This document shows, piece by piece, positions 27,320 to 44,925 of a DNA stretch of 64,000 bases. Positions within the stretch are counted from its first letter, which is position 1; each line of letters opens with the position of its first letter. Location of the stretch: contig JADKCL010000004.1 in NCBI GenBank assembly GCA_016718825.1, positions 91,277 through 155,276 of the forward strand, written 5' to 3'. The position numbers were made by a program, and so were the translations under genes. Below the pieces are notes generated by a model. That model did no database searches. It was not told the DNA's origin and worked only from the letters and a program-made list of their open reading frames with translations. Source of the stretch: Bacteroidota bacterium (GTDB taxonomy: Bacteria; Bacteroidota; Bacteroidia; J057; JADKCL01).

Positions 27320-28330
27320 ATGGAAAGCGAAGAACAGAACATCATCATTTACAATACTGCCGACGGCAAGGCTGCAGTTGCTTTGTATGCCCGCGACGGT
27401 AGTGCTTGGATGAGTCAAGCGCAACTCGCAGAACTTTTTGACACCTCTAAGCAAAACATTGGCCAACACATCGCTAATGTACTGGATGATAAAGAGTTAA
27501 ATTCAAATTCAGTTGTAAAGAATTACTTTACAACTGCCTCTGACGGCAAGCAGTACGAAGTCACCTTCTACTCCCTCGACATGATCCTGGCGATCGGATT
27601 CCGGGTTCGAAGCAAACGCGGCACTCAGTTTCGCATCTGGGCCAACAACCACTTGCGGGAATACTTGGTCAAGGGCTTTGTGATGGACGATGAGCGGCTG
27701 AAGAATCCGAATGGCCGTTTTGACTATTTTGATGAGTTGTTGGAGCGCATCCGCGAAATCCGGGCATCGGAAAAGCGGTTTTATCAGAAGGTGCGGGATT
27801 TGTTTGCATTGAGCAGCGACTATGACCAAAGCGATAAGGCGACCCAAATGTTCTTTGCGGAGACCCAAAACAAGCTCCTCTATGCCGTCACAGGACAGAC
27901 AGCGGCCGAAGTCATTGTCTCACGCGCCAACGCGAGCCTCCCCAACATGGGTTTGACCTCTTGGAAAGGCAACGTCGTGCGCAAGCAAGACATCATCGTC
28001 GCCAAAAATTATCTCAATGCCGACGAACTCGATACCCTGAACCGATTGGTCGTGCTCTTCCTTGAAAGCGCCGAGCTCAGGGTGAAAAATCGTCAAGACA
28101 TCACGATGCGCTTCTGGCGGGACAATGTCGATCGGCTTCTAGAATTTCAAGACAAGCAAGTCCTGCAAGGCGTCGGACAAATCAGCCACGGCATGATGGA
28201 GGAGCAAGTACGCGAAGTTTATGCAGCGTTTGATCAGCAGCGCAAGGCCGCCGAAGCAGCTGCCGCGGATTTGTTTGATTTGGAGGAGTTGAAGGAGCTG
28301 GAGGAGGAGGTTGGGAAACGGAATGGGTGA
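27320..28330 (+). CDS. virulence RhuM family DNA-binding protein
   Basis: WMSQAQLAELF, YSLDMILAIGFRVRSKRGTQFRIWA, GFVMDDERLK, IRASEKRFYQKV, PNMGLTSW. Confidence 0.93.
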   Translation: MESEEQNIIIYNTADGKAAVALYARDGSAWMSQAQLAELFDTSKQNIGQHIANVLDDKELNSNSVVKNYFTTASDGKQYEVTFYSLDMILAIGFRVRSKRGTQFRIWANNHLREYLVKGFVMDDERLKNPNGRFDYFDELLERIREIRASEKRFYQKVRDLFALSSDYDQSDKATQMFFAETQNKLLYAVTGQTAAEVIVSRANASLPNMGLTSWKGNVVRKQDIIVAKNYLNADELDTLNRLVVLFLESAELRVKNRQDITMRFWRDNVDRLLEFQDKQVLQGVGQISHGMMEEQVREVYAAFDQQRKAAEAAAADLFDLEELKELEEEVGKRNG

Positions 28331-37827: not shown

Positions 37828-38262
37828 ATGGCCTTTGAAGATGATCAAGATTTCAGAAGATTTCTCAGCAAATTCGAACCTAACGTGCAAGAAATTGCCT
37901 TGGGAATGCGTGAATTTGTCTGGCGACGCTATCCCGAAAGCAATGAACTGATTTACGACAAAAAGAATGGGCTTTCAGTTGGATGGGGATTTACGGACAA
38001 GGCAGGCGACATTTTTGTGAGTTTTGCCTGCTATTCCAAGCATGTGAACTTCGGGTTTCATCATGGGAACCTGCTTGCTGATCCTCAAAAAATGCTGTCG
38101 GGTAGCGGCAGCCAATACCGGCATATCAAGGTGTCGCGTTGGGCAGAGTTTCCATCTGCTGCAATGGAGGGCTTCGCGCAAGCTGCTTGGCTCAATGTTC
38201 TTGGAATGCTCAAACCGACGGCAAAACTGATTCAAGGCGTCACGATGGTGAAATCGAGCTGA
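37828..38262 (+). CDS. DUF1801-like domain protein
   Basis: NELIYD, HVNFGF.HG..L.DPQKML.GSG.QYRHIKV. Confidence 0.75.
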   Translation: MAFEDDQDFRRFLSKFEPNVQEIALGMREFVWRRYPESNELIYDKKNGLSVGWGFTDKAGDIFVSFACYSKHVNFGFHHGNLLADPQKMLSGSGSQYRHIKVSRWAEFPSAAMEGFAQAAWLNVLGMLKPTAKLIQGVTMVKSS

Positions 38263-38348
38263 AACATCCGGCGCAGAAATGAGTTTTCCATGCTGGCGAT
38301 TCCGTAACTTAGTAATGCCGGATTTGTCATTCTGCCGATTCTGATCGT

Positions 38349-39443
38349 ATGAAAGGTTACCGTTTCTCCGAATACATCGCCCCTGAAAGCACGAAGACCA
38401 CCTTCGACAAGCTGAAGGGCATCTTTTTGCAGATTCTTGTGCACACCAACGGCGATGTGGATGAGGCACTGAACTGGATGAATCAACTCGACCGGAAGTA
38501 CCATCTGACGAATGATGCCTACGGTATGGGCGACTTCATCGAAGACCTTCGCAACCAAGGTTTTATCCGCGACAACGAGGAAGGAAAATTTGACCTGACG
38601 GCAAAGTCGGAGAAGACCATCCGGCAAAATTCGCTGGAGGAAATCTTCGGGAAGCTGAAAAAAGCCCGTCGCGGTGGCCACCGCAGTCCGCAGCATGGTT
38701 TGGGCGAAGAAGCAAGTGCCGACCACCGTCCCTACGAATTCGGAGACAGTTTGGAGCAGATTGCGATGACCGATTCGCTCCGCAATGCGCAGATCAACCA
38801 TGGTCCCGACAGCAATCGCTTGACTGAAAACGACTTGGAAGTCCGCGAAAACGAATACACAACAGCTTGCTCCACAGTGCTGATGATCGATATCAGCCAC
38901 TCCATGATTTTGTATGGCGAGGACCGCATCACGCCGGCAAAAAAGACTGCGATGGCCTTGGCGGAGCTCATTACCACGCGTTACCCCAAAGACACGCTCG
39001 ACATCATCGTCTTCGGCAACGACGCCTGGCAGATCGAAATCAAGGACCTCCCCTACTTGCAGGTCGGCCCCTACCATACCAATACCGTGGCAGGATTGGA
39101 GCTCGCCATGGACCTGCTCAGGCGGCGCAAAACGCCCAACAAGCAGATCTTCATGATCACCGACGGCAAGCCAACCTGCATCAAGGAAGGCATCAAATAC
39201 TACAAAAATTCATGGGGGCTTGACCGCAAGATCATCAACAAGACGCTCACTTTAGGCGCACAATGCCGCAAATTGAAAATCCCGGTCACGACTTTCATGA
39301 TCGCCAAGGACCAATGGCTACAGGAATTTGTGCAGGAATTTACCAAAGTCAATGCAGGCCGGGCGTTTTACAGTGGATTGAATGGCCTCGGGGAGTTTGT
39401 GTTTGAGGACTATCAGAAGAATCGCCGGAAGACGGTAAGGTAG
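38349..39443 (+). CDS. von Willebrand factor type A domain protein (partner of Mg-chelatase-like AAA ATPase)
   Basis: MIDISHSMILYGEDRITPAKK MIDAS, YHTNTVAGL, MITDGKPT. Confidence 0.9.
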   Translation: MKGYRFSEYIAPESTKTTFDKLKGIFLQILVHTNGDVDEALNWMNQLDRKYHLTNDAYGMGDFIEDLRNQGFIRDNEEGKFDLTAKSEKTIRQNSLEEIFGKLKKARRGGHRSPQHGLGEEASADHRPYEFGDSLEQIAMTDSLRNAQINHGPDSNRLTENDLEVRENEYTTACSTVLMIDISHSMILYGEDRITPAKKTAMALAELITTRYPKDTLDIIVFGNDAWQIEIKDLPYLQVGPYHTNTVAGLELAMDLLRRRKTPNKQIFMITDGKPTCIKEGIKYYKNSWGLDRKIINKTLTLGAQCRKLKIPVTTFMIAKDQWLQEFVQEFTKVNAGRAFYSGLNGLGEFVFEDYQKNRRKTVR

Positions 39444-39483
39444 GAAACAAAAAAAATATCCCTCTCATTATCACCCAATTCAC

Positions 39484-40077
39484 ATGAATCATCACAACAA
39501 CGCAAAGTTCCTCGGAAGCGCTGCCCTCCTCGCCACCCTCCTCTTATTCTCAGCCTGCAACAATTGCCCTGACTACCCGATCGAGCCCGATGTGTTGCGG
39601 TTCCTGCCTTACCAAGCGAATCAGACCGTTGTATTTGAAGATGCAACACAAAATCTGGATACACTTACCGTATCTTCATTCAGCCGCGGATTTGATACGG
39701 AAACTTGCGCAGACCACCCCAGCCAAGACTTTGAATATGAGCGCATACATATCACACTGGGGACAATTGCCGGCGATTCGACCTTCGTGCTGCTTGACAA
39801 TACAACTTGGGAAAAATTGTCGATTCGGTTTCAGGACAGCGATTTGGGGCCTGCCTTTGAACCACTTTCCGGCACGCTCGACCATCCCATCGGTACCAAC
39901 TATGAGACGTTTACCTTTCAGGCAAGCGAGGTCATAAATGGCACAACGTATCAAAATGTTTCGACCTACACCAAGACGTATTACAACCCTTCCCATATAG
40001 AAACGGTAAAGCTTGCCATTGACCATGGAATTGTTGCCTTTCAAACTGATTTGGGTGTTTGGTGGTATCTTCATTGA
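39484..40077 (+). CDS. hypothetical lipoprotein
   Basis: Lipobox FSAC; LPYQANQTVVF; GIVAF C-terminus. Confidence 0.7.
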   Translation: MNHHNNAKFLGSAALLATLLLFSACNNCPDYPIEPDVLRFLPYQANQTVVFEDATQNLDTLTVSSFSRGFDTETCADHPSQDFEYERIHITLGTIAGDSTFVLLDNTTWEKLSIRFQDSDLGPAFEPLSGTLDHPIGTNYETFTFQASEVINGTTYQNVSTYTKTYYNPSHIETVKLAIDHGIVAFQTDLGVWWYLH

Positions 40078-40096
40078 TTGAATAGCACAACATTTT

Positions 40097-40161
40097 TGCA
40101 AAAACGGCGATTCCAGCGTTTCTGATCATATTGCCGACGTCGGCAAAATGATCAGAAACGC
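40097..40161. repeat. non-coding copy of an internal dinD segment containing a 46-bp near-perfect palindrome
   Basis: 40097-129 matches 40449-481 at 31/33 nt; 40116-161 has 23-bp arms with one mismatch. Confidence 0.9.
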
Positions 40162-40289
40162 ATTTTGAGGCAATCAAGGGCATGCAAAATCGCGAGCACC
40201 ATCACCAACACACTTAGCCGCACGGAAATTTTATTGGGATTTTGCGAATTATTATTGCAACAAATTAGCAATTCACTATTTTTGCAACC

Positions 40290-41144
40290 ATGAAACAAGA
40301 ACTTATCACCGAACTCTTCGAAAAATTCGAAAAAGCCTGCTATTCCTACAATGGACTAGAGTGCTGGAGCGCCCGTGAGCTCATGGAAATTTTTGAATAC
40401 ACCAAGTGGGAAAACTTCGCCAAGGTGGTTGAAAAAGCGAAACTCTCCTGCGAAAACGCCGATTCCAGCGTTTCTGATCATTTTCTTGATGTCAGGAAGA
40501 TGATCCAGACTGGCAAAGGGGCGGAAAGGGAGATTCAAGACATCGCACTCACACGCTATGCCTGCTACCTGATCGCTCAAAATGGTGACCCTGCAAAAAA
40601 TCCGGTTGCCTTTGCCCAGACTTACTTTGCTGTCCAGACCCGGAAGCAAGAAATGGTGGAACAGCGGCTTCTGAACGTCGCGCGGGTGACGGCGAGAGAA
40701 AAGCTTTCCAAAACGGAAACCAAACTTTCGAAAATTCTCTATGACCGCGGCGTCGACCACCATGGGTTTGCAAGAATCCGCTCCCAAGGCGACCAAGCAC
40801 TGTTTGGCGGAAACTCCACCGGAGAAATGAAAAAGCAGTTAAAAATCCCGGAAAACAGACCCTTGGCTGATTTCCTACCAACATTGATCATCAAAGCCAA
40901 GGACTTTGCAACTGAGCTCACGAGCCACAATGTTGTCGACAAGAACTTGCATGGTGAAGCGCCCATCACCCATGAGCATGTCGACAACAACCGCGCAGTG
41001 CGCAAAATGCTGAAAGAACGTGGCGTGAAACCAGAGGAGTTGCCGCCTTCGGAAGATGTCAAAAAGGTGCAGCGACAACTTGCCAATGAGGAAAAGGCCA
41101 TTGCTGCTGGAGCGAAAAAGCCAACCGGAAATCCGCAACAATAG
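40290..41144 (+). CDS. dinD: DNA damage-inducible protein D (Bro-N-like N-terminus)
   Basis: ECWSARELM, LTRYACYLIAQNGDP.K..VAFAQTYFAVQTRKQE, RPLADFLPT..IKAKDFATE, EHVDNN. Confidence 0.93.
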   Translation: MKQELITELFEKFEKACYSYNGLECWSARELMEIFEYTKWENFAKVVEKAKLSCENADSSVSDHFLDVRKMIQTGKGAEREIQDIALTRYACYLIAQNGDPAKNPVAFAQTYFAVQTRKQEMVEQRLLNVARVTAREKLSKTETKLSKILYDRGVDHHGFARIRSQGDQALFGGNSTGEMKKQLKIPENRPLADFLPTLIIKAKDFATELTSHNVVDKNLHGEAPITHEHVDNNRAVRKMLKERGVKPEELPPSEDVKKVQRQLANEEKAIAAGAKKPTGNPQQ

Positions 41145-41169
41145 GAGTCGAATGCCTAGATTAGATGCT

Positions 41170-41943
41170 ATGAAATTGCATTTTCACACGATCTGTTTGA
41201 TTCTAATTGTTCTGAGCAGTTGTTCAGCGCCTAAACCCGTCAAAGGCATCGAGGAGCGCCGCCAACAACATTTGGACGTGTTTCTGGACCTCTTGCGCAA
41301 CAACGATGCTGCCGGGCTTGCAAAACTTGTCCATTATCCGCTCAGCCGGGGCAATCCGATCCCAAATGTTGAGAATGAGGCGGATTTCATCCGGCGGTAT
41401 GATACTTTGTTGGATTCAGAATTTAGGAAAACCCTGGTCCAAACCACTTGGGACTCCACCAATACCATGGAAAGCAATGATCGGTTCATGTTGGGCAGTG
41501 GTGAAATCTGGCTGGACTACGAAGGTAAAATCATCGCGATCAACCATCAGTCTCCTGCGGAATCCCAACTGCAAAAGGCAATCCAAACAAAGATGTTGAT
41601 TGCCATTCACCCTGATGTGGAGCCGTGGCAACACAATCTCAAGGTTTGCGAAACGGACAAGTTCCTCATTCGGCTCGACGAAATGGCTGGCGGCGACTTG
41701 CGTTATGTCTCTTGGTCAAAACCCAAAACCTTCAAAGACAAGCCCGATCTCATTCTGGTTGGCGGGGAAAGCCAACAACAAGGAACGATGGGTGGCTTCA
41801 CCTACACCTTCAAAAATGAGGACTGGACCTACGTGATCGACGAAGTGCAAATGGCCGAATCGGATGAAGACATTGGCCTGTTTTTACGTTTGCGGCAAGG
41901 CGAAGGGGATGAGATAAGCGCTCGTTGCACGGAAATCAAATAG
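41170..41943 (+). CDS. hypothetical lipoprotein
   Basis: Lipobox LSSC; YPLSR.NPIP.V; RYVSWSK, GGFTYTFKN. Confidence 0.75.
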   Translation: MKLHFHTICLILIVLSSCSAPKPVKGIEERRQQHLDVFLDLLRNNDAAGLAKLVHYPLSRGNPIPNVENEADFIRRYDTLLDSEFRKTLVQTTWDSTNTMESNDRFMLGSGEIWLDYEGKIIAINHQSPAESQLQKAIQTKMLIAIHPDVEPWQHNLKVCETDKFLIRLDEMAGGDLRYVSWSKPKTFKDKPDLILVGGESQQQGTMGGFTYTFKNEDWTYVIDEVQMAESDEDIGLFLRLRQGEGDEISARCTEIK

Positions 41944-41950
41944 CTGGAGT

Positions 41951-42469
41951 ATGGGCTTTGGATTCAGTTTGATTGGAATTCCGTTGTTGCTTTTACTCAG
42001 CGTGGCGTTGTTGCTTTACTTCCTCTTTGTAAAAGAAAAGAAAGCCCTTTACGCACTTGGAATCCTGTGGGGAATGGTCTTTTTACTTATCCCGTTTTCA
42101 TTGCTCATGGACAATTATCGTCAGCCGATAAGTCTGACCAAGGCAGATTTTGTCGGCGATTACCGGATCGACACCACCTTCTATCCCGGCAGAAACGCGC
42201 GGTGGCAATACGATCGCTTTGGATTTCGCATTTTGGAAAGCGACAGCATCATTTTTGTCGAAATCAATGACAAAGGGACACGGACGAAATTACATCGACA
42301 TCGGATCAAAATAAACGATGTCCATCCCTCTCTCTGGAGCGTGATCGCTGAGACAACCTCCCATGTAATCCAAAAGCCACCCACGCTTTATCGAGGCCAT
42401 ACAAGATTCTACTATGTCTTTAGATCGGATCGGTATGGGAATATGTTTTTCCGAAAGGTTGATTCATGA
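41951..42469 (+). CDS. hypothetical membrane protein
   Basis: Two N-terminal TM helices, DFVGDYRID soluble domain. Confidence 0.7.
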   Translation: MGFGFSLIGIPLLLLLSVALLLYFLFVKEKKALYALGILWGMVFLLIPFSLLMDNYRQPISLTKADFVGDYRIDTTFYPGRNARWQYDRFGFRILESDSIIFVEINDKGTRTKLHRHRIKINDVHPSLWSVIAETTSHVIQKPPTLYRGHTRFYYVFRSDRYGNMFFRKVDS

Positions 42470-42581
42470 ATGTTCCTGATTGAATTTGGCTTAATTTGAT
42501 TCCATGTTTGTCTCATGAATGCGAATTGGCTTTCAATTTCAATTCAGCTCTTTAGGTGGCATCCGAAAAGCAAAAACTAAA

Positions 42582-43202
42582 ATGACCGATCAAGATCACC
42601 TCCGCTCCCTCCGCGTTCCGACGAAGGAAAATCCTTTGCGCATCCTCATGAGCGCCTGCCTTGCGGGCGTGACATGCGGGTACGACGGCACAGCAAATGG
42701 CACCTATCCAAGTGCACTGAAGCTCCTGCAATATGACACTGCGCGTTTGGTGCGCTTTTGCCCGGAGGAGTTTTCCTTCGGTTCGCCGAGGGCCATGTGC
42801 GACATCCACGGCGGGACCGGCTTGGACGTGTTGGAAGGTAGAGCCAAAATGCTGTCGGAGTTTGGCGAAGATTGGAGCGAAGGCATCATCCGAGCCTCGG
42901 AAAAGATGCTGGAACTCGCCCAAGCAGAAGACGTCGAACTTGCCGTACTGATGGACGTGAGCGGTGCCTGCGGCAGTCAAGTCATTTATGACGGCAACCG
43001 GTTTGGTGCCGAAAAGGTCTATCAAATCGGGGCAGGAGTCTGCGCTGCCCAACTGATGCGCAACGGCTTCAAAGTCATCAGTCAGCGGGATTTTGCCTCG
43101 CTGGAACTGCTTTATGCAAAATTGGATCCTGCGCATATCATCAATCCGGAGGCCATCGATCACCACGAAACCGCTTGGTACCGATTATATTTTGGGAAAT
43201 GA
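42582..43202 (+). CDS. DUF523 / 2-thiouracil desulfurase (TudS) family protein
   Basis: SACLAGVTCGYDG, FCPEE, SGACGS, GAGVCAAQL. Confidence 0.82.
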   Translation: MTDQDHLRSLRVPTKENPLRILMSACLAGVTCGYDGTANGTYPSALKLLQYDTARLVRFCPEEFSFGSPRAMCDIHGGTGLDVLEGRAKMLSEFGEDWSEGIIRASEKMLELAQAEDVELAVLMDVSGACGSQVIYDGNRFGAEKVYQIGAGVCAAQLMRNGFKVISQRDFASLELLYAKLDPAHIINPEAIDHHETAWYRLYFGK

Positions 43203-43308
43203 AGGCGATATCCCAAGGATTCAATGACAAATTGCGATCAACCCGGAGTAGCTAGGCCGCAAAAGTTGAGTGAACCAAACTATCTTTGATGAATATACCG
43301 GATCCACG

Positions 43309-44217
43309 ATGAGACGATTTCAGACTTTCATATTTGTAATTGCCCTTGCATTGATTTCGGGATGCGGAGGTACTCCGGCGAACGTTCCTAGCGACGAGAA
43401 AATTGAACTCGTTGACGGCCAAGAAAACAACGCCGACACAGCAGCTCTAGCTGATGTAGACGCAACTTCTGCCGACACCGATACTTTCAATTTGGAGGAA
43501 ATGGAGTTTGGATTTGCAAATTCCGAAGGGAATAACATCCTGACAACCAAAACCGAAGGACTGAAAGATCCCGCAAAATTTTCCATGGCGATTGCAGAAA
43601 ATGGTAGTCAATTTGCCATTCAATTCGTAGCGCAAAAAGAAGCGACAGAAAACGACAACGGCCGCCAAAACGAATACAACTTCAAGGACATTGGAGGATT
43701 TCTTTACAAGGTCAAGGGCGGAACGGTTAGCGCGGAACAATCGCTCATGCTGGTAACAGCTGACTTTTTGACAAAACATAAACCGCTCAAATTCAATCCC
43801 TCGGCTTCAAATTCGCTTTCGAAGGCAACACGTACCAAAATCGAAGGTGAAAAGGGACGCAAAATCAAGAAATCCAACTTGTTACGGAAGCTGGAGGGTG
43901 GGCAGGAAATTTGGATCTTTGTGTTCCAGCAAAAAGCGGATTCAGCCTTGGCTTCACTTGCCGTCGTGTCGGAAAACAAGGTCATTTACCAAGATTATCC
44001 AGCCTTGCACAACGAAATCAGCACATGGCGGGTCGACGACGGTGGTGAATTCGGATTGGACGACATTCACATTCTCGCTGCATTTGACTACGCAGGCAAA
44101 ATTGAAATCGTCACGGATTGGGCCGGAGCAGAGGGGTTTTCGATCGATTTTCTGCAAGAAGACGGAAAGGCGTTCAGGTCTCTCAAAAATGACGGGCGCT
44201 ATTGTGCGCCGTTTTGA
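43309..44217 (+). CDS. hypothetical lipoprotein
   Basis: Lipobox ISGC; QNEYNF, WRVDDGGEF, DWAGAEG; TATCTTTG promoter at 43281. Confidence 0.75.
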   Translation: MRRFQTFIFVIALALISGCGGTPANVPSDEKIELVDGQENNADTAALADVDATSADTDTFNLEEMEFGFANSEGNNILTTKTEGLKDPAKFSMAIAENGSQFAIQFVAQKEATENDNGRQNEYNFKDIGGFLYKVKGGTVSAEQSLMLVTADFLTKHKPLKFNPSASNSLSKATRTKIEGEKGRKIKKSNLLRKLEGGQEIWIFVFQQKADSALASLAVVSENKVIYQDYPALHNEISTWRVDDGGEFGLDDIHILAAFDYAGKIEIVTDWAGAEGFSIDFLQEDGKAFRSLKNDGRYCAPF

Positions 44218-44265
44218 TTTCAAACGCAGGCTGCTCGACTCAAAACGGAAAACCCATTCCCCATT

Positions 44266-44925
44266 TTGGAAAATCTTCCCATCGAAATCCTGCCTATCTT
44301 ACCTTTCCTGGAGGGTGATCCTACCAAGCTGATCATCGGGACATTTCCGCCACACAGGAGCAGATGGAACTTCCCATTTTTCTTCCCCAATCTGCAAAAC
44401 CGGCTTTGGAACACACTCGGAAGGGTTGCTTACGGAGCGGAAAACTTCAGCACCCGAAGCAATGGCTTTGACGAAGCAGCTGTTGAGGAACGGCAAGCCA
44501 TCCTCCGCAAACTGAATGCTGCAATGGTCAATATCATCCATTCATGCAGCAGAAAGGGGCAAAGCGCATTGGACAACGACCTGAATGTGGCGACCTTGCA
44601 TCCGATCGTGACTGAAATCCTTGAACCGCATCCGACAATCTTGGAGATTTTCCTGACGAGTGGCAGCGGAGCCAACAGCTGTTTGTCCCTGCTGAAACGG
44701 CATCTCAAGGAAAACCGAATTCCTTTCGAAGAAACGAAGGCTCCCCAAAAATCTCGTGATGCCCGAATTGCGGATCCCAAAATCGGCTTTTTCACACTGA
44801 ACGGTCGCAGGATAGCAGTGTATTCGCTGTTTTCGCCGTCTCCCACGGCACAGCGATCGGGCATCACGGAGGCAGTGTTGCTGCAGCAATACCAAGTGTT
44901 GGCAGCGCAGAATAGCAAGGCATGA
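44266..44925 (+). CDS. uracil-DNA glycosylase superfamily protein (MUG/HDG-like)
   Basis: LIIGTFPP, FFFPNLQNRLW, ALDNDL, LFSPSP; start codon uncertain. Confidence 0.75.
   Translation: MENLPIEILPILPFLEGDPTKLIIGTFPPHRSRWNFPFFFPNLQNRLWNTLGRVAYGAENFSTRSNGFDEAAVEERQAILRKLNAAMVNIIHSCSRKGQSALDNDLNVATLHPIVTEILEPHPTILEIFLTSGSGANSCLSLLKRHLKENRIPFEETKAPQKSRDARIADPKIGFFTLNGRRIAVYSLFSPSPTAQRSGITEAVLLQQYQVLAAQNSKA

What the first reader, a model, noticed from the sequence alone, without database searches (positions are those of the whole stretch)
40097..40505. Silent second copy of the dinD internal palindrome, differing by base-pair-compensating changes
Seen: about 130 nt upstream of the dinD ATG lies a non-coding 46-bp palindrome (40116-161; 23-bp arms, one mismatch). 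Its left flank matches dinD 40449-481 at 31/33 nt. The genic copy (GATCATTTTCTTGA-TG-TCAGGAAGATGATC, 40476-505) is itself a hairpin of 12 Watson-Crick plus 2 G-T pairs. The 24-nt cores differ at 8 positions. Two pairs change on both arms (G-C to C-G, C-G to T-A), and the rest give G-T wobble or sit at the loop. The structure is kept while the peptide changes (HFLDVRKMI vs HIADVGKMI) inside the predicted Bro-N-like DNA-binding region. Inference: a structure-templated variable cassette with a donor or relic copy, or an operator that the protein partly encodes itself.
Basis: partly seen in the sequence, partly recalled or inferred. Interest (0 to 1): 0.8.

Follow-up and report, generated by a model that had tools for sequence, protein, structure and literature searches.

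The report
Extra copy of dinD's in-frame palindrome
The non-coding palindrome upstream of dinD is real and is one instance of an apparently undescribed 30-bp hairpin-forming DNA element that dinD genes from E. coli to Bacteroidota carry inside their reading frame, keep base-paired even at the cost of amino-acid changes, and often repeat beside the gene.

Summary
ORF 40290-41144 is a DinD equivalog. Bases 40097-40153 are an ungapped partial copy of codons 54-72 (31/33 in the left flank, 8 differences in the 24-nt core), sitting in a 46-bp palindrome with 22/23 pairs. Independent metagenome contigs span it, so it is not a misassembly.

The compensating changes are not local. In 176 of 209 dinD homologues, including E. 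coli K-12, codons 63-72 (DHFxDVxKM[IV]) form a stem of about 12 bp. Codon 4 and codon 7 are exact reverse complements in 116 of 168 unique sequences, as 11 different residue pairs. Covariation survives phylogenetically independent contrasts (p about 1e-7 for the Asp third base against Ile/Val).

About 12% of loci carry extra non-coding copies beside the gene. A same-genus relative has them at the same -152 position. The genome holds no copies away from dinD.

A donor cassette is not supported: reads show no alternative cores, genes show no mosaicism at the palindrome, and variability there is ordinary. My best reading, at moderate confidence, is a cis-acting DNA site of the dinD unit, probably bound or bridged by the DdrC-like DinD dimer. 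Arm complementarity would be kept by hairpin formation or templated correction. I found no published description.

The parts
40097..40129 (+). Left flank of the upstream copy. It duplicates dinD 40449-40481 (codons 54-64) and lies out of any ORF.
   Evidence: 31/33 identical at offset 352. tblastn fragment hit to aa 54-73.
40116..40161 (.). 46-bp non-coding palindrome with 23-bp arms and one A.A mismatch. The 8 outermost bp on the right (40154-40161) are an inverted copy of the left flank, not of the gene.
   Evidence: 44/46 self-complementary. (-33 kcal/mol on either strand, z about -8). Contigs of X2 and X3 span it.
40124..40153 (.). 30-bp core of the upstream copy, GATCATATTGCCGACGTCGGCAAAATGATC. 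It is the extragenic member of the dinD palindrome family and is centred 152 nt before the ATG.
   Evidence: Same-genus G001 has copies centred at -152 and -214.
40162..40289 (+). Spacer with the probable dinD promoter: TTG at 40255-40257 and TATTTTTG at 40277-40284, read as Bacteroidota-type -33/-7 boxes. With the region from 40078 it holds the window's highest density of ATTTTG/TTTTGC words.
   Evidence: Sequence. Word count 10 against 0.86 expected, the window maximum. The promoter assignment is inference from the published Bacteroidetes consensus (own knowledge).
40290..41144 (+). dinD (DNA-damage-inducible protein D family). It has a Bro-N type winged-helix N-domain plus a helical C-domain and matches PADLOC candidate PDC-S13.
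   Evidence: AlphaFold2 model pLDDT 94.8. The only significant PDB fold matches are Deinococcus DdrC.
40476..40505 (+). In-frame 30-bp palindrome, codons 63-72 (DHFLDVRKMI). It encodes the end of a short helix and the first strand of the beta-hairpin wing.
   Evidence: (sense RNA fold -22 kcal/mol, antisense -14.9). It is conserved at the same codons in 176 of 209 homologues.

Best explanation
Shown: the upstream palindrome is an extragenic copy of a family-wide nucleic-acid element of dinD genes.
- The element has a stem of about 12 bp, GAYCATTTTNNN / NNNAAAATGRTC, around a 4-6 nt centre.
- It is written in frame into codons 63-72 of nearly all DinD genes.
- Its complementarity is maintained at the nucleotide level, even through amino-acid changes.
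- Bare or flank-bearing copies recur in non-coding DNA right beside dinD.
- In this lineage the unit [palindrome at about -152, promoter, dinD] is old.

Inferred mechanism: the copies are cis-acting DNA sites of the dinD unit. The most economical binder is the dimeric, DdrC-like DinD protein itself. Binding, or bridging of the upstream and internal sites (352 bp apart, with the promoter between them), would autoregulate a potentially harmful accessory gene and let the control travel with the gene on horizontal transfer. This resembles parS inside parB, or the lac O2 and gal OI internal operators.

The complementarity at non-conserved stem positions does not follow from a shared protein specificity. 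It implies either that the site acts as an extruded hairpin or cruciform, or that template-switch correction of quasi-palindromes keeps the arms matched.

The local copy's 31/33 left flank and its 8-bp inverted extension look like products of gene conversion and fold-back templating between the two copies.
For: Family-wide element:
- 176 of 209 full-length homologues from Bacteroidota, Chloroflexota, Planctomycetota, Clostridia, Pseudomonadota, CPR bacteria and prophages have the palindrome at codons about 63-72.
- E. coli K-12 dinD has GACCATTTCGAGGAGATCCTCGATATGGTC, 13 of 15 pairs.

Covariation:
- Codons 4 and 7 are exact reverse complements in 116 of 168 unique cores, as 11 residue pairs (V/N, R/T, A/S, P/R, A/G, P/G, I/N, A/R, V/Y, E/L, V/H).
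- The Val synonymous codon follows its partner: GTT-AAC, GTA-TAC, GTG-CAC.
- Permutation gives a mean of 19 and a maximum of 34.
- Phylogenetically independent contrasts: pair 3-28 about 23 of 24 the same way and 0 opposite, p about 1e-7; pair 10-21 p about 2e-4; pair 12-19 p about 4e-3.
- Central pairs 14-17 and 15-16 and the outermost pair 1-30 do not covary. This is stem-loop geometry.
- Outer-arm compensation: L215 GGATGT.../...ACATCC (GCFRDVTKTS, 30/30) and L055 CGT/ACG.
- x4 and x7 lie three residues apart on one beta-strand, on opposite faces, so protein contact does not explain the covariation.

Extragenic copies:
- The strict motif hits 19 times in 0.53 Mb of dinD flanks, 17 of them within 220 nt of the gene. 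It hits 7 unrelated places in the 7.7-Mb genome.
- Position classes: -30 to -54, ending 3-7 nt before the Shine-Dalgarno sequence in four of the loci read (L097, L142, L143, L222); -118 to -218; and just after the stop codon.
- Most are bare 30-mers without coding flanks.
- Canonical upstream copies persist where the genic palindrome has decayed: L222-230, L033, L016.

Age of the unit:
- G001 (neighbouring VWA gene 92% identical, dinD 65%) has alignable upstream DNA with copies at -152 and -214.
- L013 and L015 keep a decayed remnant at about -150.

Specificity: the genome has no copy away from dinD.

DNA-binding plausibility:
- Bro-N domain.
- Fold match to DdrC, E 3e-6. DdrC is a dimer with two DNA sites that bridges and loops DNA (PMC11347143, PMC9303277).

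DNA rather than RNA:
- Bacteroidota-type copies lie upstream of the probable promoter.
- T.G from AAG codons (18) and C.A from TTC codons (15) are equally common, so there is no sense-strand bias.
Against: - No binding, transcript or reporter data exist for any of this. DinD as the binder is inference.
- In this window both sites are badly placed for simple repression (-152 and +201 from the ATG).
- 352 bp is 33.5 helical turns, which is out of phase for looping.
- Inner triplets differ between copies of one locus in about half of the loci, so the variable stem positions are not read by one protein.
- The DdrC papers argue that its winged helix is not the DNA-binding surface (PMC9303277). The fold match has modest TM-scores (0.37 and 0.47).
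- Only about 12% of loci have extragenic copies, and E. coli has a LexA box instead.
- Template-switch correction alone could produce the covariation without any function.
- The evidence that upstream copies compensate for lost genic ones rests on about three lineages.
Confidence: 0.45

Rival explanations
1. Mutational by-product plus relic. The conserved residues DHF...KM[IV] happen to have reverse-complementary codons. Replication template switching within this quasi-palindrome then keeps converting mismatches to matches wherever the protein tolerates it. The upstream copy is a decaying partial duplication of codons 54-72, perfected and lengthened by the same process, and has no function.
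For: - The pattern of exceptions follows protein constraint. Silent changes that would need K->E or F->L to compensate stay unpaired (TTC/AAA 15 times, TTT/AAG 18 times). Changes compensable by I<->V or M->V are compensated.
- Non-coding copies are more perfect and longer than the 30-mer: window 46 bp, L071 42 bp, L176 38 bp.
- The window copy carries a coding-derived flank.
- Quasi-palindrome correction is a well-known strong mutational hotspot in E. coli (own knowledge: Ripley; Lovett laboratory).
Against: - It does not explain why copies accumulate only beside dinD and at stereotyped distances.
- It does not explain why most are bare 30-mers bounded exactly at the element.
- It does not explain why canonical upstream copies persist where the genic one is degenerate.
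- It does not explain why position -152 is shared by alleles only 65% identical.
- Four reverse-complementary residue pairs arising by chance is unlikely.
Confidence: 0.2
2. Structure-specific recombination or mobility signal. The hairpin would be the site, attC- or REP-like, at which dinD cassettes are inserted, exchanged or broken. The upstream copy would mark the left end of the cassette.
For: - dinD is a mobile accessory gene. The closest homologues are in other phyla.
- It lies at different loci in same-genus genomes, in a variable islet after a conserved VWA gene.
- It lies beside integrases at prophage ends (PMC4129442).
- Homology between G000 and G001 begins at the upstream copy.
- L071 has copies on both sides of the gene.
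- Truncated or internally deleted dinD relics all keep the palindrome and end at aa 73-80: L024, L026, L031, L068.
Against: - No recombinase gene stood out in the ORFs listed around dinD (38000-43000); no systematic domain search for one was run.
- No N/C mosaicism at the palindrome among 197 genes.
- No joints or inversions in metagenome contigs.
- There are only two copies in 7.7 Mb, unlike REP elements.
- The attC R'/R'' core consensus was not looked for.
- Detection of short relics is biased towards this well-conserved segment.
Confidence: 0.12
3. RNA element. The stem-loop acts in the dinD mRNA, and in the 5' UTR where a copy precedes the Shine-Dalgarno sequence. It would serve as a translational operator, an RNase III site or a stabiliser.
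For: - Covariation is confined to a 10-12 bp stem around a 4-6 nt loop.
- The window's genic copy folds better as sense RNA (-22) than antisense (-14.9 kcal/mol) because its mismatches are G.U.
- In four of the Firmicutes- and Actinobacteria-type loci read, the extragenic copy ends 3-7 nt before the Shine-Dalgarno sequence.
- Metatranscriptome contigs cover the palindrome of L143 (weak).
Against: - Across the family there is no sense-strand excess of G.U over A.C.
- Bacteroidota-type copies, including this window's, lie 100 nt or more upstream of the probable promoter or after the stop codon. They lack terminator U-runs.
- There is no Rfam family.
Confidence: 0.1
4. Donor cassette for templated diversification of the DinD wing, or a plain terminator of the upstream gene 39484-40077.
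For: - The core differs while the flank is nearly identical.
- The palindrome lies 39 nt after the upstream stop codon and is followed by ATTTTGA.
Against: - There is no alternative core in four metagenome runs.
- There is one orphan only.
- The differences are not A-specific.
- Variability is ordinary.
- The terminator scan does not call the site.
- Homologous loci have a separate canonical terminator hairpin next to the remnant.
Confidence: 0.04

Closest known systems
parS centromere site inside the parB/spo0J coding sequence; internal operators lac O2 and gal OI (own knowledge)
   Same: A short dyad-symmetric protein-binding DNA site is embedded in a coding sequence, in the parS case in the gene of its own binding protein. 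Further copies lie nearby, allowing bridging or looping. The site travels with the gene.
   Different: Binding is unproven here. The site is conserved at the same codons across phyla for a non-partition accessory gene. Non-conserved stem positions keep complementarity through amino-acid changes, which those operators are not known to do.
Quasi-palindrome template-switch mutation hotspots (Ripley model; E. coli thyA and lacZ QP reporters; own knowledge)
   Same: Imperfect inverted repeats are converted to perfect ones by several coordinated base changes. This would yield exactly the compensated pairs and the lengthened non-coding palindromes seen here.
   Different: It is a mutational process, not an element. 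It does not account for the placement and persistence of extragenic copies beside dinD.
Integron attC sites and CALINs
   Same: Structure-defined hairpin sites with variable sequence but conserved pairing, associated with mobile single-gene cassettes and sometimes found in arrays.
   Different: No integron integrase was seen in the ORFs read near dinD, and none was searched for. Neither the conserved R'/R'' cores nor extrahelical bases were looked for. The site lies inside the ORF at a fixed codon position rather than at the cassette's 3' end.
Baculovirus homologous regions (hr) next to bro genes (own knowledge; also raised by an earlier scan note)
   Same: Repeated imperfect palindromes of about 30 bp bound by a dimeric viral protein and often adjacent to Bro-N domain genes.
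   Different: hr palindromes are intergenic enhancer or origin elements of eukaryotic viruses bound by IE-1. No in-frame copy in bro genes is known to me, and there is no sequence similarity.
Deinococcus radiodurans DdrC (PDB 7udi, 8u0g, 7qvb)
   Same: A DNA-damage-induced protein with a winged-helix N-domain and a helical C-domain. It gives the only significant fold matches of the DinD model (E 3e-6 to 4.5e-4). It is a dimer with two DNA sites that bridges distant sites (PMC11347143).
   Different: DdrC recognises nicks and ends, not a sequence. Sequence identity is 10-12% and TM-scores are 0.26-0.47. The DdrC papers describe it as Deinococcus-specific and without known structural homologues (PMC9303277).

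Membership tests
DinD (NCBIfam NF008573, equivalog) | Whole-protein score above the curated cut-off of 242 bits | tested here: met
   344.7 bits, E 4e-103, profile positions 2-283 of 288.
Bro-N domain proteins (Pfam PF02498) | N-terminal Bro-N domain above the gathering score | tested here: met
   37.8 bits against 25.6, residues 24-104. The AlphaFold2 model shows helix-helix-wing.
dinD in-frame palindrome element (defined here) | 30-mer with CATTTT / AAAATG arms and at least 10 of 12 outer pairs at codons about 63-72 | tested here: met
   Window gene: 12 of 12 outer pairs counting 2 G.T. 176 of 209 homologues qualify.
dinD in-frame palindrome element (defined here) | Extragenic copy within about 220 nt of a dinD gene and none elsewhere in the genome | tested here: met
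   Upstream copy centred at -152. A genome scan finds only the two dinD-locus copies.
Transcriptional operator / autoregulatory site | Specific binding by a regulator | not testable with these tools
   Needs EMSA, footprinting or ChIP.
Transcriptional operator / autoregulatory site | Overlap with, or close proximity to, the core promoter | tested here: inconclusive
   Window copies lie at -152 and +201 from the ATG and do not overlap the probable -33/-7 boxes. In other loci copies sit at -30 to -54, and in four of those read they end just before the Shine-Dalgarno sequence.
LexA / SOS box | Match to the LexA motif of the phylum | tested here: not met
   Bacteroidetes LexA-like motifs are GGA-N5-TCC and CTAA-N5-TTAG (PMC8565304). 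The E. coli box CTGT-N8-ACAG is present upstream of E. coli dinD but is a different sequence.
Intrinsic terminator | GC-rich stem followed by a U-run | tested here: not met
   The scan of 39900-40600 does not call the site, and only ATTTT follows.
REP/REPIN or MITE-type dispersed repeat | Many dispersed copies in the genome | tested here: not met
   Two copies in 7.7 Mb, both at dinD.
Diversity-generating retroelement / donor cassette | Template and variable repeat differing at adenines | tested here: not met
   Only 2 of the 8 differences are at A in the orphan.
Diversity-generating retroelement / donor cassette | Reverse-transcriptase gene nearby | not tested
   No RT gene stood out in the ORFs listed around dinD, but no domain search for one was run.
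Diversity-generating retroelement / donor cassette | Population heterogeneity in the variable repeat | tested here: not met
   No alternative genic core in four runs (contigs only).
Integron attC | Integron integrase nearby | not tested
   No integrase stood out in the ORFs listed for 38000-43000. No systematic integrase search of the contig was run.
Integron attC | Conserved R''/R' core (GTTRRRY), with the site at the cassette's 3' end | not tested
   The element was not compared with the attC core consensus. It does lie in frame at codons 63-72 or upstream of the gene rather than at a cassette's 3' end.
Rfam RNA families | Score at or above a family's gathering threshold | tested here: not met
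   Only sub-threshold miRNA-precursor hits, which any long hairpin gives.

The most novel reading that the evidence does not exclude
A cross-phylum class of accessory, defence-island genes (DinD/Bro-N, and RhuM as seen in this same window) carries in its own reading frame the hairpin-forming DNA site that its DdrC-like, DNA-bridging product recognises. The segment encoding the protein's wing would then be also its ligand. The protein would sense extrusion of these sites, driven by supercoiling, single-stranded DNA, DNA damage or phage attack, and so control itself or trigger its activity. The extragenic copies would be auxiliary sites of the same self-contained module.
Probability: 0.15. Interest if true: 0.9.

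Novelty: new variant of a known kind. Interest (0 to 1): 0.72.

Why it matters
DinD is a classic SOS gene of E. coli whose function is still poorly defined, and its family is a candidate phage-defence gene (PADLOC PDC-S13).

A 30-bp stem conserved at the same codons from E. coli to Bacteroidota, Clostridia and prophages is a rare, clean case of a nucleic-acid constraint overriding protein sequence in a bacterial gene. It is kept by compensatory non-synonymous changes and repeated in non-coding DNA beside the gene.

It gives a directly testable handle on DinD in E. coli K-12: does DinD bind its own gene, and what happens when the stem is recoded synonymously?

The fold link to Deinococcus DdrC, which its papers call Deinococcus-specific and without known structural homologues, would connect two DNA-damage proteins.

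If instead the pairing is purely mutational, it is a striking natural record of quasi-palindrome template switching shaping a protein.

Tried and rejected
- Misassembly: rejected. X2 and X3 contigs span the region. X1 and X7 unitigs merely break at the palindrome, as de Bruijn graphs do.
- LexA box: rejected.
- Rfam family: none.
- Terminator: not called.
- Dispersed repeat: rejected.
- Donor cassette or DGR: rejected.
- Protein-contact covariation of x4 and x7: rejected. They sit on the same beta-strand three residues apart, on opposite faces. Synonymous codon choice also follows the partner codon.
- Shared protein specificity as the cause of symmetric inner triplets: rejected, because copies of one locus differ.
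- Continuous dyad symmetry through the centre: not supported, since central pairs do not covary.
- Recombination breakpoint at the palindrome: no N/C mosaic pairs.
- Synteny of the upstream ORF 39484-40077: no homologue in 12 relatives.
- One call failed on a frame error.
- E. coli RNA runs could not be queried because the sequence was not admissible.
- Uranga et al. 2011 on DinD is not held in the library.
- Metatranscriptome contigs on L143 cover both sides of its upstream palindrome but give no transcript ends.
- Literature searches for dinD with palindrome, RNase III or Bro-N found no description of the element.
Full report
**What is in the window**

ORF 40290-41144 (+) is a DinD equivalog: NF008573, E 4e-103, 344.7 bits against a cut-off of 242. 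It has a Bro-N domain and matches the PADLOC candidate defence family PDC-S13 at E 6e-115.

At an ungapped offset of 352 nt, 40097-40153 is a partial copy of 40449-40505 (codons 54-72). The match is 31/33 in the left flank, 10/18 in the inner core and 6/6 at ATGATC. There is no similarity beyond either end.

The upstream copy sits in a 46-bp palindrome, 40116-40161, with 22 of 23 pairs. Its last 8 bp, AGAAACGC, are the inverse of its own left flank and not a copy of the gene. The genic 30-mer 40476-40505 pairs with 12 Watson-Crick and 2 G-T pairs.

So are the two doubly compensated pairs (10-21 and 12-19) and the two peptides.

Chance does not produce this: 0.00 motif matches are expected in shuffles, and the fold has z -8.4. 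It is not an assembly artefact either. Contigs from two independent activated-sludge studies span 39900-40700 with a single SNP. No alternative core or joint appears in four runs, although these are contigs and rare variants would be missed.

**The compensation is a property of the whole DinD family**

I collected 209 full-length homologues with flanks:
- relatives of the window's genome;
- GTDB genomes of several phyla;
- metagenome contigs and viral contigs, both fetched with peptide patterns outside the motif;
- E. coli K-12.

In 176 of them, codons about 63-72 (consensus DHFxDVxKM[I/V]) form the same palindrome, GAYCATTTTNNNGANNTCNNNAAAATGRTC. E. coli K-12 dinD reads GACCATTTCGAGGAGATCCTCGATATGGTC (DHFEEILDMV), 13 of 15 pairs, RNA fold z -7.3.

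Among 168 unique cores, codon 4 and codon 7 are exact reverse complements in 116. These fall into 11 different residue pairs:
- V/N GTT-AAC
- R/T CGT-ACG
- A/S GCT-AGC
- P/R CCT-AGG
- A/G GCC-GGC
- P/G CCC-GGG
- I/N ATT-AAT
- A/R GCG-CGC
- V/Y GTA-TAC
- E/L GAG-CTC
- V/H GTG-CAC

Permuting partners gives a mean of 19 and a maximum of 34 in 10,000 trials. The synonymous codon of Val is predicted by its partner. The silent third base of Asp-1 (T or C) tracks Ile (ATC) against Val (GTC) at position 10. CAT to CAC is matched by ATG to GTG.

I built a FastTree of 197 proteins and used phylogenetically independent contrasts:
- pair 3-28: about 23 of 24 the same way, 0 opposite, p about 1e-7;
- pair 10-21: p about 2e-4;
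- pair 12-19: p about 4e-3;
- pair 11-20: p 0.016 and 0.03.

Even the conserved outer arm can change with compensation. L215 reads GGATGTTTTCGTGACGTCACGAAAACATCC (GCFRDVTKTS, 30/30). L055 has CGT/ACG.

The central pairs 14-17 and 15-16 and the outermost pair 1-30 do not covary. The constrained object is therefore a stem of about 12 bp around a 4-6 nt centre.

A high-confidence AlphaFold2 model (pLDDT 94.8) puts residues 61-64 in a short helix and 65-74 in the first strand of a beta-hairpin wing. x4 and x7 are three residues apart on one strand, on opposite faces, so side-chain contact cannot explain the covariation. Their variability, 2.4 and 2.7 bits, is ordinary for this surface region.

**The upstream copy is one of a recurrent class**

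I scanned all loci with a strict motif. It finds 19 extragenic copies in 0.53 Mb of dinD flanks, 17 of them within 220 nt of the gene. The same motif hits only 7 unrelated places in the window's own 7.7-Mb genome, whose only true copies are the two at dinD. With slightly looser criteria, about 25 of 209 loci have extragenic copies.

They fall into three position classes:
- centred 30-54 nt before the start codon, ending 3-7 nt before the Shine-Dalgarno sequence in L097, L142, L143 and L222 (also L145 and L033, further from the start region);
- centred at -118 to -218 (this window -152; L071 -119 and -218; L123 -118 and -165; L016 -152 and -214; L176 -183);
- just after the stop codon (L052 +17, L071 +32, L025 +187, L024).

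L071 is the closest metagenome homologue. It has four copies: two upstream, a perfect genic one and a 42-bp perfect one downstream.

Most extragenic copies are bare 30-mers without coding-derived flanks. This window's 27-nt flank is the exception.

They are not simply fresh duplicates. In L222-230, L033 and L016 the genic palindrome is degenerate while the upstream copy is canonical. The inner triplet differs between copies of one locus in about half of the loci, yet it is complementary within each copy.

**History at this locus**

The neighbouring VWA gene (38349-39443) is 92% identical at the protein level in same-genus G001 and about 79-80% identical at the DNA level in G001, G003 and G005.
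- G003 and G005 go from it straight to the homologue of window 44291 onwards. Their dinD is elsewhere.
- G001 has a dinD only 65% identical directly after the VWA gene. Its upstream region aligns with the window's and carries two palindromes, in 62-nt tandem units, at -214 and -152.
- L013 and L015, from two more same-genus genomes, keep a decayed remnant at about -150.

So [palindrome, promoter, dinD] is an old unit that moves as a whole in a variable islet.

The 31/33 flank and the 8-bp inverted extension in this genome look like later gene conversion and fold-back templating. That is inference.

**What it most likely does**

DNA rather than RNA:
- The Bacteroidota-type copies lie upstream of the probable -33/-7 promoter (TTG at 40255-57, TATTTTTG at 40277-84) or after stop codons, and have no U-runs.
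- Family-wide there is no sense-strand excess of G.U over A.C. T.G from AAG occurs 18 times and C.A from TTC 15 times.

A cis element specific to dinD:
- No copies lie elsewhere in the genome.
- The stretch 40078-40289 has the window's highest density of the ATTTTG/TTTTGC half-site words, 10 against 0.86 expected. AT-rich promoter DNA contributes to this.

A plausible binder is DinD itself. It has a Bro-N winged helix. Its only significant PDB fold matches are to Deinococcus DdrC, at E 3e-6 to 4.5e-4. DdrC is a damage-induced dimer with two DNA-binding sites that bridges and loops DNA (PMC11347143, PMC9303277).

I therefore favour a self-contained regulatory or bridging site, analogous to parS inside parB or to lac O2 and gal OI. 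Complementarity at unread positions would be kept either because the site acts as an extruded hairpin or because quasi-palindrome template switching keeps correcting it. Binding is untested. In this window the two sites are poorly placed for simple repression. The whole covariation pattern could arise mutationally. For these reasons my confidence in the mechanism is about 0.45, while confidence in the descriptive result is about 0.9.

**Rivals**

- A purely mutational by-product plus relic (0.2) fits the pattern of exceptions and the lengthened non-coding palindromes. It does not fit the placement, bareness and persistence of the extragenic copies.
- A structure-specific recombination signal (0.12) fits the gene's mobility and the fact that dinD relics (L024, L026, L031, L068) all retain the palindrome and end at aa 73-80. 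However, I found no mosaicism at the palindrome, no joints, and no recombinase gene among the ORFs listed around dinD.
- An RNA hairpin (0.1) fits the stem-loop geometry and the copies next to the Shine-Dalgarno sequence. It does not fit the copies upstream of promoters.
- The donor-cassette idea is not supported.

**Novelty**

Full-text searches found no description of the element. The Bacteroidetes LexA-like motifs are different.

After forming this reading I consulted earlier notes of this scan. Other agents have independently met the same dinD palindrome, and analogous in-frame palindromes in RhuM and other families, in many genomes. These are unreviewed AI notes, not independent evidence.

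I did verify the RhuM case in this window: 27510-27536, CAGTTGTAAAGAATTACTTTACAACTG, at codons 64-72 of ORF 27320-28330.

Noticed in passing
window 27510-27536 (ORF 27320-28330, +): An ORF I read as RhuM-family from its sequence and an earlier scan note (no domain search run) carries its own in-frame 27-bp palindrome, CAGTTGTAAAGAATTACTTTACAACTG, with 12 of 13 pairs. It lies at codons 64-72 (SVVKNYFTTAS), about the same distance into the protein as the dinD palindrome, but with an unrelated sequence.
   Followed up: partly
window 40290-41144 (model md4d17634b913): The only significant PDB fold matches of the DinD model are Deinococcus radiodurans DdrC (7udi, 8u0g, 7qvb; E 3e-6 to 4.5e-4; TM 0.26-0.47; 10-12% identity). 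The DdrC papers call DdrC Deinococcus-specific and without known structural homologues, so a DinD-DdrC relationship may be unreported.
   Followed up: partly
window 39444-44290: The stretch between the conserved VWA gene (38349-39443) and the gene starting near 44266 is a variable islet. Same-genus G003 and G005 join the two flanks directly. G001 has only dinD plus about 0.9 kb there. The lipoprotein-like ORF 39484-40077 has no homologue in 12 relatives.
   Followed up: partly
L016 / L241 (G001:C127), 247 nt between the VWA stop and the dinD start: Two 62-nt tandem units, each ending in the palindrome GAGCATTTTCCCGAACCCGGGAACATGTTC. This genome's genic palindrome is degenerate (DHFLLVTKEV).
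   Followed up: partly
G000:C10:170774-171907 (own genome, outside the window): A different palindrome family, CTCAATTTTCCGCCNNGGCGGAAAATTTGG, recurs about every 190 nt at least five times.
   Followed up: no
window 40117-40177, run X1: Short unitigs of 44 and 46 nt across the upstream palindrome carry one 'other letter' at depths like the main contig. This could be a perfect-palindrome variant in the population or just the reverse-strand reading of the near-palindrome. Contigs cannot tell.
   Followed up: no
L142, L143, L179 and other viral or gut loci: In Firmicutes-type prophage loci dinD lies between a small HTH gene and a large serine recombinase near the prophage end. The palindrome fills the short gap before the Shine-Dalgarno sequence. 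In X25 and X26 a contig shares 1430-1517 of L143 (palindrome plus gene start) and then continues into unrelated sequence.
   Followed up: no
L068 1399-1710; L026: Two dinD relics have large internal deletions (aa about 79-252 and about 81-221). The left edge of each lies just after the palindrome and the GSG turn.
   Followed up: partly
window 40092-40103: A mini-palindrome, TTTTTGCAAAAA, made of two half-site words, lies immediately before the duplicated flank. In all, 10 ATTTTG/TTTTGC words lie in 40078-40289.
   Followed up: partly
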